Assembly: GCA_043822105.1 (NCBI GenBank)
Contig: JBDRCD010000015.1
Span: forward strand, 16,443-80,442
Length of the DNA: 64,000 nt
Source of the DNA: an archaeon
GTDB taxonomy: Archaea; Nanobdellota; Nanobdellia; Woesearchaeales; GCA-2686295
Direction of reading: 5' to 3'
Of this stretch, positions 6,001 through 9,000 are shown in pieces (within the stretch, counting starts at the first letter, position 1; the number at the start of each line of letters is the position of its first letter). A program made the position numbers.

Positions 6001-9000
6001 CATTCAAAATCAAAGTTTTCATCCCACTCGGCTTCTTTGAAAACAGCATTAAAGTCATTTCTGTGAGCCAGTACAAGGTTCAAACCTTTTTTTGGTCCTA
6101 TTCCTTTTACACCGCCAACATCATAGTCTGTTCCAGAAAGCATTGCAACAACAATTAATTGGTCTTGAGTAATCTTAAGATTGTTCAAATTATCAGCCAA
6201 GGATATTAGTTCTGGGTTGACTGTTTTGTAGGCGAGGGTCTTTGTGGCCTTTCTTCTTCCGCTTATAGTGAGGTTTTTAACAACCAAAGAAGCTTCAAAC
6301 AGCAGAGAATCTGTGTCCTGGCTCACAATTGCATAGCAATCGCCTTTGTCAACCATGTGAGACGCCTGGGCTTCTCCTTCACTTGGTGCATCAACAATTG
6401 GCATTCCAAGAGCTTTTATCAGGGCCTTTGCTTCATCAATCATCTCGGTTGTTAACTTTGATGTTCTCGATGCATATTTTTTCATATCTTCAACATTTTC
6501 TTCCTGTTTTGCGTTTTCATAGAGTTTGGTCGCTTCAAGTTTCAGGTCTTTTCTTCTTTTTCGTTCAGCTTTTTTCATGTCAGGAACTTCACCGTCAAAC
6601 ACAAAAACAAATTTTAAATCCTCAATCATAAGCTTTGTAATTCTGCTAAAAAGTCCAATCAAATGACTAGTTACTCTACCCTTTGAATCCATCAATGGAG
6701 TTCCGTTTGGCTGTCTTATGCTTGACAGAAACTGATAAAGCATGTTATAGGAGTCTACTGCCAGAACTTTTCCTTTCAAATCTTCAATTGTTATTTCCTT
6801 TGTTATCAGAATATCTGTTATTGGTGTTCCCATTTTTTATGAAATAAAATAATGGGTGCTCAAAAATGTTTCGATTTTTGTTGTTCCCATTTTTCATATT
6901 TTTTTTAGTACAAGTCCTTTGAATTCTTTATCAAGCATTTCACTGGCTTTTTTTGTAACATCACCTGTTGTCAGAAACAAAACAGGCAACTTTAATGATT
7001 GTGCTTTTAAATAAACAGAGCTAAGGTCTCCATCTGTGCATTTCTTCTTATTCTTTGCTTTGCAGTAATACTGCACCTTTCCAACAGAACTAGGCACCAT
7101 AACTTCAAATTCCAGATCAGTTTTCTTTCGAATAATATTTTCACTGACAACCTCAATATTTTTTTCTTTGAAATAATCATAAACTTGACCTAGGAAACCT
7201 TCTTTGCTTTCTGCATCCTTTTTTATCACTTTTTGTGTTTCCTCTTTTTGAATCTCTTTTTCTTCTTGTTTTATTTCAGGCCCTTCCTCTTTTATTATCT
7301 GCTCCGGTTCTGCTTTTTTGGGTGATGGTGTAGGTGATTTTTTTCTGATTATTGATTCAACTTCACTTAAAGGTGTAAGATACCATTTCCAGAAAATTTC
7401 TTTTTCTCCGTGAATATTAACCTTCAAGGGCTTTGCAAAATCAATTATGTTTCTAAGACTAACTCTGATAAGCATCTCTTGGTTTTTGTCTCTCAGAACT
7501 TTTTTAGCTTTCAATAAATCAAATGTTTTTTGATCTTTTTCATTGAGATATTTCTTGAGTTCTTGAAGTTTAAATTCTTGTCCGGGAGCATAGTAGGTTG
7601 GAGAACCGCCTATTTTTGTATGAGAAATTTTGATCAAACCATCCTGTGATAGTTCAGAAAGGATGGCGCTAATTACATATGTGTCGCCTCCAACCTGTTT
7701 TTTTATTTCATTCGGAATGACAGGTCCTTTTGCTTTTACAATTCTCAGAATTTCTTCTTTGTCAGACATATTTTTTCTTAGTTAGAATTAGTTTTAAAAA
7801 CTTTCGTTTAGGGTCTAAGCCACTTAATTTCCCAGTAGGTGACGTCCCCTTCATCATCGACAACACCCATCATAAGTCTTTTTTTTGTGGAGTGTGCAAC
7901 ACGATTTTTCGCCGCGAATTCATACCATGTCAATGTTGAACCTTCATGAACAGGATAGATAATCCATCTGGCATGATCTTCGCCAGGTTTTATTCCTCGG
8001 TCATAAACTCTAAAATCTGCTCCAAACTTAAGCGCAGTCTTTACAATGTATCCTCTGTCTCTCATATCCTTGAAAACAGAATACCTCACCCAGAAGTTTG
8101 GTTCAATTTTTGTGGCTTTTTTAACATATCTTTCAAAAGTGTATTCTTTGTTATTTGCATCCAGTATGACAATTTTTTCTTTTTCTTTCAAAAAAAGTGC
8201 TTCTTGTAGTGACAGTTGAAGCTTTTTATCTTCCAAAAGAGTCCCAAAAACACTTTTATTATACAGATCAAGAGTTTCGTCGCTGCTTTCAACAAGAACT
8301 CTTTCTTGGGCGAATAGTGCCTTAATAAGATTTTTTTCAGATTTTATAGTTATTTTCTTTGCAACTTTTGACTTCTTAGATTCAGAAACTTTTGTTTTTA
8401 TTTTGCCAACTACTTCTTTTTTAATTACTTTTTTAACCGTCTTTTTCGCTGTGGTTTTCTTGGTTGTTTGTTTGGGCTTTGCCCTAACTTCAGAAGTTTT
8501 TGCTTCTCTTTTCTTAACTGGCATATCAAGGATTAAACCCGAGGCACTTTAAAAACTTTTGCAAAAACATATAAAGATGCCATTCCTACAAATGTGTATG
8601 GAAATAACGTTTTTAGGAACCTCATGCATGGTTCCGACGAAGGAGAGAAATGTCCAAGGAATATATTTATCTCATAAAACCGAAGGTATATTGATTGACT
8701 GTGGTGAAGGAAGCCAAAGGCAGATGAATCTTGCAGGAATAAACAGAAACAAAGTAAATACTATTTTAGTAACTCATTGGCATGGTGATCATGTGGGAGG
8801 AATAATTGGTTTGCTCCAAACAGTTTCAGACAAAGAAAATCCTCCAAGAATTGAAATATATGGCCCTAAGGGAACCAAGAAAAGAATACAACATTTACTG
8901 GACTCAGTAGTATTTGATGGTTCAAATCTTAATCTGAAAATAACAGAGCTAAATCCGAAGAAAATAGAGAAATTTAAGGATAAGGATGATTTTTATATAG

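What the first reader, a model, noticed from the sequence alone, without database searches (positions are those of the whole stretch)
6894..7769. Mrr-like winged-helix/PD-(D/E)xK protein immediately downstream of EndA: possible type IV restriction or novel nuclease
The C-terminal 80 aa (VQYYCKAK ... VLFLTTGDVTKKASEML ... LVL) resemble the catalytic core of Mrr-family restriction endonucleases (QAKR ... FITTSSFTKEA). The N-terminus is a wH as in Mrr_N, but they are separated by an unusually long K/E-rich low-complexity linker. It is the only defence-like candidate in the window, yet it is co-directional and closely spaced (38 bp) with the tRNA-splicing endonuclease. It could instead be an RNA/DNA processing nuclease.
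Basis: partly seen in the sequence, partly recalled or inferred. Interest (0 to 1): 0.5.

Follow-up and report, generated by a model that had tools for sequence, protein, structure and literature searches.

The report
Core archaeal protein with Mrr-derived domain
This gene encodes an uncharacterised protein kept in hundreds of tiny DPANN (Woesearchaeota-type) archaea; it carries a diverged copy of the Mrr restriction-enzyme domain but sits in a fixed housekeeping cluster next to the flap endonuclease FEN1, so it is not a defence gene.

Summary

The type IV restriction reading is not supported:
- The family is large (1,213 clusters at 50% identity with E<=1e-30) and seen only in Woesearchaeota/Nanoarchaeota-type genomes.
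- It has one copy per locus and is absent from phage, plasmid, viral and defence (PADLOC) libraries.
- It sits in a conserved block: RNase Z | EndA-X-FEN1-(EamA)-Trm5.
- It has its own position-conserved BRE/TATA promoter, implying a leaderless transcript. FEN1 starts 0-4 nt after its stop (or overlaps it by 1 nt) in 35 of 80 genomes.
- Mrr's catalytic Gln is replaced by Lys (K237), while two carboxylates (D218, E220) and K239 are about 98-100% conserved.

My best reading is a domesticated Mrr-like module acting on DNA structures alongside FEN1. Whether it cuts is unresolved. Moderate interest.

The parts
6894..7769 (-). Protein X: 291-aa ORF including the stop codon, the subject of the finding
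   Evidence: ORF list. 931 homologous clusters at 90% identity, all unnamed or 'hypothetical'. 1,213-1,702 representative clusters at 50% identity.
7584..7769 (-). Winged helix 1 (residues 1-62). The recognition helix is small and hydrophobic (A35 and L37 invariant). The wing 'TKIGGSPxYY' is conserved (K52, G54, P57, Y59 invariant).
7332..7583 (-). Winged helix 2 plus a trailing helix (residues 63-146). R102 and R106 are invariant in the recognition helix, and the wing carries an aromatic 'FWKWY' motif.
   Evidence: AF2 secondary structure. Invariant columns. Foldseek matches over 124-200 alignment columns to proteins I know to contain multiple wH domains: TFIIIC tauB, a Pol III pre-initiation complex chain, YcaQ/AlkX and ESCRT-II.
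7200..7331 (-). Disordered K/E/P-rich linker (residues about 147-190), variable in length among relatives
   Evidence: pLDDT <50 for residues 152-188. Linker length 25-99 aa in 120 relatives, and far longer in the 434-435-aa relatives P0165 and P0181. Composition 23% K and 23% E.
6897..7199 (-). C-terminal Mrr-type restriction-endonuclease-like domain (residues 191-291). D218 and E220 lie at the start of beta-2, K237-A-K239 at the end of beta-3, followed by a Lys-rich loop, D246/D248, and 'TTGDVTKKA'.
7792..7806 (-). Predicted archaeal promoter of X: BRE-like CGAAAG (7801-7806) and TATA box TTTTTAAAA (7792-7800). The TATA box is centred about 27 nt before the ATG, implying a leaderless mRNA.
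   Evidence: Sequence. TATA-like hexamers pile up at -32..-28 from the ATG in 81 related loci (7, 15, 34, 25 and 35 hits at those positions, against 0-6 at any other position). The function of the element is inferred, not shown.
7808..8524 (-). EndA, the tRNA-splicing endonuclease (alpha-type, with a Lys-rich N-terminal extension) and conserved upstream neighbour
   Evidence: Pfam and NCBIfam. Upstream on the same strand within 100 nt in 56 of the 72 loci where it lies upstream on the same strand. Y174, H184 and K215 are invariant and the acidic loop is conserved in 70 relatives.
5802..6833 (-). FEN1 flap endonuclease, the conserved downstream neighbour, probably co-transcribed with X in many genomes
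   Evidence: Pfam XPG_N and XPG_I. Downstream on the same strand in 80 of 83 loci. The gap from the X stop to the FEN1 ATG is at most 4 nt in 35 loci and at most 100 nt in 53. There is no position-specific TATA peak upstream of FEN1.

Best explanation
Protein X is a vertically inherited housekeeping gene of Woesearchaeota-type DPANN archaea, not a defence gene.

Shown:
- It consists of two winged helices, a disordered K/E/P tether, and a C-terminal alpha-beta-beta-beta-alpha-beta domain descended from the Mrr-type restriction-endonuclease catalytic domain.
- That domain keeps two carboxylates at the start of beta-2 (D218, E220) and the beta-3 lysine (K239). The Gln/Glu of the Mrr 'QxK' motif is replaced by Lys (K237).
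- The gene lies in a fixed block, RNase Z | EndA-X-FEN1-(EamA)-Trm5. A position-conserved BRE/TATA element sits about 27 nt before its ATG.
- In about 40% of genomes FEN1 starts 0-4 nt after the X stop codon, or overlaps it by 1 nt.

Inferred:
- X is transcribed as a leaderless mRNA from its own promoter and is often co-transcribed with FEN1.
- It is a domesticated Mrr-like module that binds branched or flapped DNA, and possibly nicks it. Binding would come from winged helix 2 (invariant R102/R106) and the Lys-rich face of the C-terminal domain.
- It works in the same pathway as FEN1: lagging-strand maturation or repair.
- If it is catalytic, it uses a rearranged 'DxE...KxK' site in which the second acid sits on beta-2. 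This is comparable to the documented acid migration in EcoO109I (EPD-XXK).
For: Fold and Mrr ancestry:
- 7 of 30 relatives hit Pfam Mrr_cat sub-threshold.
- The family profile against E. coli Mrr aligns KAK to QAK and TTGeLTkkA to TTSGFTSQA. The score is 6.9 bits, against at most 2.6 bits in 500 shuffles.

Residue conservation in 179 sequences: position 218 is D/E in 177, position 220 is E/D in 176, position 237 is K/R in 175, position 239 is K/R in 179, and K241 is present in 178.

Housekeeping status:
- 1,213 representative clusters at E<=1e-30.
The 80 loci listed all carry Woesearchaeota/Nanoarchaeota-type or generic or doubtful archaeal MAG labels.
- One copy per locus in 83 loci.
- X is 46% identical to its relatives, against 57% for FEN1 and 51% for RNase Z in the same genomes.
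- No relatives in phages, plasmids or IMG/VR, and the window protein has no PADLOC match.

Gene coupling:
- Synteny tables.
- The X-to-FEN1 gap is at most 4 nt in 35 of 80 loci.
- Neighbours within 150 nt: both EndA and FEN1 in 39 loci, EndA only in 19, FEN1 only in 15.

Promoter: a TATA-like peak at -32..-28 from the X ATG in 81 loci, with no such peak for FEN1.

Active-site migration precedent: Steczkiewicz et al. 2012, PMC3424549.
Against: No experiment and no complex prediction links X physically to FEN1 or to DNA. Conserved adjacency in compact archaeal genomes can be historical rather than functional.

EndA adjacency is about as persistent as FEN1 adjacency. The block also holds the tRNA enzymes RNase Z and Trm5, so an RNA role is not excluded.

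I found no PCNA-binding PIP box.

Lys at the metal-ligand position (K237) is not known to me from any active PD-(D/E)xK enzyme, so the domain may be non-catalytic.

In this particular window the X-FEN1 gap is 60 nt and contains a BRE/TATA-like element, so co-transcription may not hold in this genome.

I could not inspect the model coordinates. The placement of D218/E220 opposite K239/K237 rests on the beta-hairpin register, not on measured distances.
Confidence: 0.4

Rival explanations
1. RNA-processing factor. X works with EndA, RNase Z and Trm5 in tRNA or rRNA maturation. It would be either an RNA-binding cofactor that delivers substrates to EndA or a second RNA nuclease built on the same fold class as EndA.
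Against: A conserved promoter separates X from EndA, whereas FEN1 is the tightly abutted gene. hhalign finds no relation between the X C-domain and the EndA alignment from the same genomes (probability 0.1%). The detectable sequence signal points to Mrr_cat, a DNA nuclease family. EndA here keeps its catalytic Y/H/K and the acidic L10 loop, so it looks self-sufficient as an alpha4-type enzyme (the assignment of these residues follows the M. jannaschii triad quoted in PMC3424549).
Confidence: 0.2
2. Non-catalytic transcription or chromatin protein. The restriction-endonuclease-like domain is an inactivated DNA-binding or protein-binding module, like the RPB5 N-terminal jaw, TIP26 or 'iREase' sensor domains. 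The tandem winged helices would resemble those of eukaryote-type transcription factors.
Against: Two carboxylates that interchange only D with E are conserved at about 98-99%, which is unusual for a purely binding surface. Active E. coli Mrr itself hits NA-iREase1 at 2.3e-10, so that hit says nothing about inactivity. Canonical TFE coexists in related loci (PF02002, E 3.1e-14), and hhalign of the X N-terminus against it gives probability 0.1%. No transcription gene is a conserved neighbour.
Confidence: 0.15
3. Type IV (Mrr-like, modification-dependent) restriction enzyme. The winged helix reads modified DNA, the linker sets the cleavage distance, and the Mrr-type domain cuts.
For: The architecture of reader wH, linker and Mrr-type domain is that of known NTP-independent modification-dependent enzymes. 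A wH-Mrr(PD-QXK)-NTPase fusion is mentioned in PMC11037411. The fold and weak sequence similarity to Mrr_cat also fit.
Against: The family is large (over 1,200 clusters at 50% identity) and was found only in one lineage, with one copy per locus. It sits in a fixed housekeeping block with a conserved promoter. The window protein has no PADLOC model, and there are no relatives on phages, plasmids or viral contigs. There is no Mrr_N similarity. The QxK Gln is replaced by Lys in 167 of 179 sequences.
Confidence: 0.04
4. Divergent structural (beta-like) subunit of the splicing endonuclease, fused to winged helices.
For: The gene lies directly downstream of EndA. Fold similarity to the beta subunits PAE0789 and NEQ261. 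From my own knowledge, Nanoarchaeum, a relative within the same broad group, uses an alpha-beta heterotetramer.
Against: There is no sequence relation to EndA. Mrr-type domains score higher both in structure and in sequence. EndA here retains the acidic L10 loop and the catalytic triad, so no beta subunit is needed.
Confidence: 0.03

Closest known systems
Mrr-type catalytic domains (Pfam Mrr_cat PF04471: E. coli Mrr, AF1548/1y88, and the nuclease domains of MspJI, AspBHI and LlaBIII)
   Different: Scores stay below the Pfam gathering threshold. The Gln/Glu of QxK is Lys. The acids are spaced DxE rather than DGGxD. The N-terminus is not Mrr_N, and there are two winged helices plus a long disordered linker. 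The distribution is core and syntenic in one archaeal lineage rather than sporadic or in defence islands.
wH-nuclease fusion type IV restriction enzymes (DpnI-like wH readers; PMC11037411)
   Same: Modular plan: a winged helix reader, a linker, and a low-specificity nuclease domain.
NucS/EndoMS (archaeal mismatch endonuclease)
   Different: X has no NucS N-terminal domain. It has no canonical D-E-K triad and no PIP box. No sequence hit was found.
Eukaryotic RPB5 N-terminal domain, TIP26 and NA-iREase1 (non-catalytic restriction-endonuclease-fold modules)
   Different: X keeps highly conserved carboxylates and lysines at the active-site hairpin. There is no sequence similarity to RPB5. The NA-iREase1 hits are weak, and active Mrr shares them.
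MutH and other domesticated restriction-like nucleases (own knowledge)
   Same: The concept is the same: a restriction-enzyme-type PD-(D/E)xK domain recruited to a chromosomal maintenance pathway.
   Different: No homology was tested or claimed. This is an analogy only.

Membership tests
Mrr_cat (PF04471) | Score above the Pfam gathering threshold (21 bits) | tested here: not met
   The window protein has no Mrr_cat hit at E<=1. 7 of 30 relatives hit weakly (best E 3.7e-4), and the two shown score 15.9 and 13.6 bits. E. coli Mrr scores 135 bits.
Mrr_cat (PF04471) | Restriction-endonuclease-like alpha-beta-beta-beta-alpha-beta fold, closest to Mrr-type domains | tested here: met
Mrr_cat (PF04471) | Catalytic beta-2 Asp and beta-3 Lys | tested here: met
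   Position 218 is D/E in 177 of 179 sequences, position 220 is E/D in 176, and position 239 is K/R in all 179. K239 aligns to Mrr K221.
Mrr_cat (PF04471) | Gln/Glu two residues before the catalytic Lys (QxK or ExK) | tested here: not met
   Position 237 is K in 167, R in 8 and Q in 2 of 179 sequences. It aligns to Mrr Q219.
Type IV restriction enzyme (Mrr-like) | N-terminal Mrr_N or another known modified-DNA reader | tested here: not met
   No Mrr_N Pfam hit. The family's N-terminal profile finds nothing in Mrr residues 1-100. The DpnI-type methyl pocket was not tested.
Type IV restriction enzyme (Mrr-like) | Defence-gene behaviour: sporadic distribution, variable context, presence on mobile elements, match to defence models | tested here: not met
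   The context is fixed in 83 loci. The family is large and was found in only one lineage. PADLOC gives nothing for the window protein and only single-member weak hits among relatives. No hits in phages, plasmids or IMG/VR.
Type IV restriction enzyme (Mrr-like) | Modification-dependent DNA cleavage or toxicity | not testable with these tools
   Needs expression in methylation-proficient and methylation-deficient hosts, plus in-vitro cleavage assays.
PD-(D/E)xK superfamily (fold level) | Core fold with active-site hairpin residues | tested here: met
   A variant site is plausible given the documented migrations (PMC3424549).
Archaeal TFE / TFIIE-alpha | PF02002 above threshold, a Zn ribbon, and being the lineage's only TFE | tested here: not met
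   The window protein scores 14.3 bits against a cutoff of 22.9. It has no Cys motif (sequence). Canonical TFE (E 3.1e-14, with CxxC motifs) is present in 5 related loci that also hold X. hhalign probability is 0.1%.
EndA structural beta subunit | Sequence homology to EndA, and an EndA lacking the structural elements | tested here: not met
Z-alpha domain | Asn, Arg and Tyr on helix 3 that contact Z-form nucleic acid (residue roles from my own knowledge) | tested here: not met
NucS/EndoMS | NucS N-domain, D-E-K triad and a C-terminal PIP box | tested here: not met

The most novel reading that the evidence does not exclude
X is a domesticated Mrr-type restriction nuclease that has become an essential, catalytically active partner of FEN1 in Woesearchaeota-type DPANN archaea. 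It would be a previously unrecognised structure-specific nuclease of lagging-strand maturation or repair that uses a rearranged 'DxE...KxK' active site.
Probability: 0.2. Interest if true: 0.7.

Novelty: new variant of a known kind. Interest (0 to 1): 0.42.

Why it matters
DPANN archaea have heavily reduced genomes, so a gene kept in one copy per locus, in the same information-processing block, across hundreds of species-level genomes is probably important. Yet this family has no Pfam or NCBIfam model above threshold, no source name beyond 'hypothetical protein' (one stray mislabel aside), and no paper in my literature searches.

It would be a clear case of a restriction-enzyme catalytic domain recruited to chromosomal housekeeping. 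It also carries an unusual Lys at a metal-ligand position, and it gives a concrete candidate partner for FEN1 (or EndA) that can be tested biochemically. Finally, it is a caution for defence-gene mining: 'wH + Mrr-like' does not always mean type IV restriction.

Tried and rejected
- TFE/TFIIE-alpha identity was suggested by weak PF02002 hits. I rejected it because canonical TFE coexists in related loci and hhalign probability is 0.1%.
- EndA beta-subunit paralogue: there is no sequence relation, and EndA looks self-sufficient.
- Hjc relation: hhalign probability 0.4%.
- Z-alpha domain: it is the top wH structural match, but the key helix-3 residues are absent.
- PCNA-binding PIP box: canonical patterns are rare and not positionally conserved. 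There is only a loose 'Q[KE]x[LIV]' motif late in the linker, in 165 of 246 sequences.
- Gene fusions as functional clues: the one long relative (P0133, 582 aa) has an N-terminal extension that looks like a spurious upstream reading frame. Other long relatives simply have longer linkers.
- Defence and mobile-element links: PADLOC, phages, plasmids and IMG/VR were all negative.
- Direct sequence searches of PDB with the protein, the full-length profile and the C-domain profile gave nothing significant.
- hhalign of the family against a single E. coli Mrr sequence failed because the template profile had Neff 1. HMMER with a shuffle control was used instead.
- The afdb50 fold library was unavailable.
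- The exact window protein is not indexed in the contig look-up.
- Literature searches found no description of this family.
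Full report
**Observation.** It runs from 6894 to 7769 on the minus strand, starts with ATG, and encodes 291 aa, with a TGA stop at 6896-6894. The ORF upstream on the same strand (7808-8524) is a genuine tRNA-splicing endonuclease: Pfam tRNA_int_endo 7.4e-29, tRNA_int_endo_N 1.7e-12, and TIGR00324 at 98.9 bits against a cutoff of 59.6. The spacer is 38 nt. The ORF downstream (5802-6833) is FEN1, with XPG_N and XPG_I domains. A Hjc resolvase, a histone, RNase Z, an EamA transporter and a Trm5/Taw2 methyltransferase lie nearby.

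**Anatomy.** An AlphaFold2 model built on 30 homologues has mean pLDDT 83.9. It shows four parts:
- Winged helix 1, residues 1-62.
- Winged helix 2 plus a trailing helix, residues 63-146.
- A segment with pLDDT <50, residues 152-188.
- A compact C-terminal domain, residues 191-291, with order alpha-beta-beta-beta-alpha-beta-alpha-beta.

The low pTM (0.48) fits two modules on a flexible tether. Across 120 relatives the linker is 25-99 aa (median 58) and is 23% K, 23% E and 9.5% P. The 434-435-aa relatives P0165 and P0181 have much longer linkers. Modelled alone, the C-terminal domain reaches pLDDT 93.8 and pTM 0.85.

**Is the C-terminal domain Mrr-like?** Yes at the level of fold, and weakly at the level of sequence.
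- Foldseek on the full model puts MspJI first (E 7.5e-5).
- The window protein has no Pfam hit to Mrr_cat. Among 30 relatives, 7 hit Mrr_cat (best E 3.7e-4), 4 hit NA-iREase1 and 4 hit TFIIE_alpha, all weakly. The per-protein scores that were displayed are all below threshold.
- A profile of 179 C-domains searched one-to-one against E. coli Mrr residues 160-290 gives 6.9 bits, while the best of 500 shuffled Mrr fragments gives 2.6 bits.
- That alignment pairs 'yyCKAK' with 'VYVQAK' and 'flTTGeLTkkA' with 'FITTSGFTSQA'.

X K237 therefore corresponds to Mrr Q219 and X K239 to Mrr K221 (numbering). The rare relative P0029 reads 'CQAK' at this point. Its Pfam coordinates (residues 218-308 on profile positions 6-97) are consistent with the mapping of E. 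coli Mrr (164-281 on positions 2-115).

**Catalytic residues.** In 179 non-redundant C-domains:
- Position 218 is D/E in 177.
- Position 220 is E/D in 176.
- Position 237 is K in 167, R in 8 and Q in 2.
- Position 239 is K/R in all 179.
- K241, D246, D248, S250, Q257 and T272-K273-K274 are also highly conserved.

In the model, beta-2 spans 218-227 and beta-3 spans 230-239. By hairpin register, D218 faces K239 and E220 faces K237. This is an inference, because I could not read the coordinates. The canonical Mrr 'D...QxK' is nonetheless altered, with Lys in the Gln/Glu position. Steczkiewicz et al. 2012 (PMC3424549) document active enzymes in which the second acid has migrated. In EcoO109I (EPD-XXK) it sits next to the PD acid, and in Cfr10I (PD-XXK-E) it sits on the following helix. 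They also describe superfamily members that have lost activity. A 'DxE...KxK' site could be either, so I treat catalysis as unresolved.

**Distribution.** The family is very large but was found in only one lineage.
- 931 clusters at 90% identity match. Those that carry a name are called 'hypothetical protein' (apart from one evident mislabel), none has a precomputed Pfam domain, and the labelled sources are Woesearchaeota, Nanoarchaeota or simply 'archaeon'.
- A profile search of 1.84 billion representatives finds 1,702, 1,566 and 1,213 clusters at E<=1e-3, 1e-10 and 1e-30. The small gap between those counts shows a discrete family that does not grade into the wider Mrr_cat family.
The best 80 come from 80 different contigs.
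- X occurs once per locus and has no paralogue in the window.
- There are no relatives in 50,697 phage records, 72,556 plasmids or IMG/VR contigs.
- The window protein has no PADLOC or NCBIfam match, and relatives give only scattered weak hits of one or two members each.

**Context.** In 83 non-redundant loci:
- FEN1 is present in 79, EndA in 66, Trm5 in 57, RNase Z in 53, Hjc in 28 and EamA in 26. These counts are limited by the 4-kb flanks and by contig ends.
- EndA ends within 100 nt upstream of X in 56 of the 72 loci where it lies upstream on the same strand (median gap 55 nt).
- FEN1 starts within 4 nt of the X stop codon in 35 of 80 loci and within 100 nt in 53.
- Using a 150-nt criterion, both neighbours are adjacent in 39 loci, EndA only in 19, FEN1 only in 15 and neither in 10.

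**Promoter.** Upstream regions of X aligned at the ATG show a sharp pile-up of TATA-like hexamers starting at -32 to -28. The counts are 7, 15, 34, 25 and 35 hits, against 0-6 at any other position over 81 loci. The hexamers are usually preceded by a purine-rich CGAAA/CAAAA element, and Shine-Dalgarno-like motifs are almost absent (4 of 81). In the window the element reads CGAAAG-TTTTTAAAA at -37 to -23 (7792-7806, minus strand). From general knowledge of archaeal promoters, a TATA box centred about 26-27 nt upstream of the start site implies transcription starting at or next to the ATG, which gives a leaderless mRNA. FEN1 shows no comparable positional peak. In the many genomes with gaps of 0-4 nt or a 1-nt overlap, it is most simply read as co-transcribed with X. 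In this window the X-FEN1 gap is 60 nt and contains a similar but weaker CGAAAC-ATTTTTGA element at -40 to -27. FEN1 may therefore have its own promoter in this genome.

**Interpretation.** A type IV restriction enzyme should be sporadic, variable in context, often on mobile DNA, and should carry a modified-DNA reader and an intact D...(Q/E)xK site. X fails each of these tests wherever I could apply them. Its modular plan (reader wH, linker, nuclease-type domain) does match known wH-nuclease type IV enzymes (PMC11037411), which is probably where it came from. I read X as a domesticated Mrr-like module in a housekeeping role.

The choice between DNA and RNA is not settled. The tight abutment to FEN1 and the Mrr (DNA nuclease) ancestry favour a DNA-structure role alongside FEN1; I put this at 0.4. 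The equally persistent EndA, RNase Z and Trm5 neighbourhood keeps an RNA-processing role alive at 0.2. A non-catalytic transcription or chromatin role is possible at 0.15, given the K237 substitution and the fold similarity to the RPB5 jaw.

An EndA beta-subunit role is unlikely. There is no sequence relation to EndA. EndA keeps invariant Y174, H184 and K215 and a conserved acidic L10-type loop in 70 relatives, as expected of a self-sufficient alpha4-type enzyme.

**Novelty and score.** The fold and superfamily are known, and the 'wH + Mrr-type domain' plan is known from defence enzymes. Four things are new:
- A large, unannotated, lineage-wide family.
- Tandem wH domains and a long disordered tether.
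- A Lys at the QxK position.
- A fixed housekeeping context with its own leaderless promoter and coupling to FEN1.

I class it as a new variant of a known kind, of moderate interest (0.42). The most novel reading still allowed is an active, domesticated restriction-type nuclease working as a core partner of FEN1 in DPANN archaea (probability about 0.2).

Noticed in passing
window 8330-8524 (-), N-terminus of EndA: EndA carries a Lys-rich N-terminal extension of about 65 aa (23 Lys in the first 65 residues) ahead of the standard N- and C-domains. EndA length varies from 197 to 255 aa in relatives. The catalytic Y174/H184/K215 are invariant and the acidic loop D223-D227 is conserved in 70 relatives.
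   Followed up: partly
window 3819-10151; loci L001-L085: A conserved information-processing block, Hjc-histone-RNase Z | EndA-X-FEN1-(EamA)-Trm5/Taw2, recurs across 83 loci from genomes only 41-67% identical in X.
   Followed up: yes
window 6834-6893 (-), between X and FEN1: The 60-nt spacer holds CGAAAC-ATTTTTGA at -40..-27 from the FEN1 ATG, resembling X's BRE/TATA. FEN1 may therefore have its own promoter in this genome. By contrast, the gap is at most 4 nt in 35 of 80 related genomes.
   Followed up: partly
L005 (P0115; GCA_054388075.1 contig JBQSKY010000098.1): This MAG is labelled Candidatus Ranarchaeia, an Asgard lineage. Yet the 14.7-kb contig has the Woesearchaeal synteny, and its X homologue is the top hit of the family profile. 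This is possibly a mis-binned DPANN contig.
   Followed up: partly
loci L013, L014, L023, L026-L031 and others: Many species-representative MAGs titled 'uncultured Methanosarcinales archaeon (binchicken...)' carry this DPANN-type locus with full synteny. The taxonomic labels look unreliable.
   Followed up: no
window 10488-10796 (+): A 102-aa ORF has conserved homologues in 6 related loci (about 91 aa) and no Pfam match at E<=1e-3. It is another small conserved unknown in the same neighbourhood.
   Followed up: partly
L027, L035, L051, L058, L064, L067, L073, L083, L084; and L003, L015, L016, L018-L020, L025: Where X and FEN1 are separated, the inserted gene is recurrent. In 9 loci it is a ~208-aa protein with a hydrophobic, signal-peptide-like N-terminus and no Pfam hit. 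In 7 loci it is an RNase_H_2 (PF13482, 1.7e-28) protein.
   Followed up: partly
L029, L034, L044, L055, L071 (upstream of Hjc): A canonical TFE (TFIIE_alpha, E 3.1e-14, with a Zn-ribbon Cys motif) lies a few genes upstream of X in five related loci. An IF-2B family gene lies nearby in five loci, three of them shared with the TFE set.
   Followed up: yes
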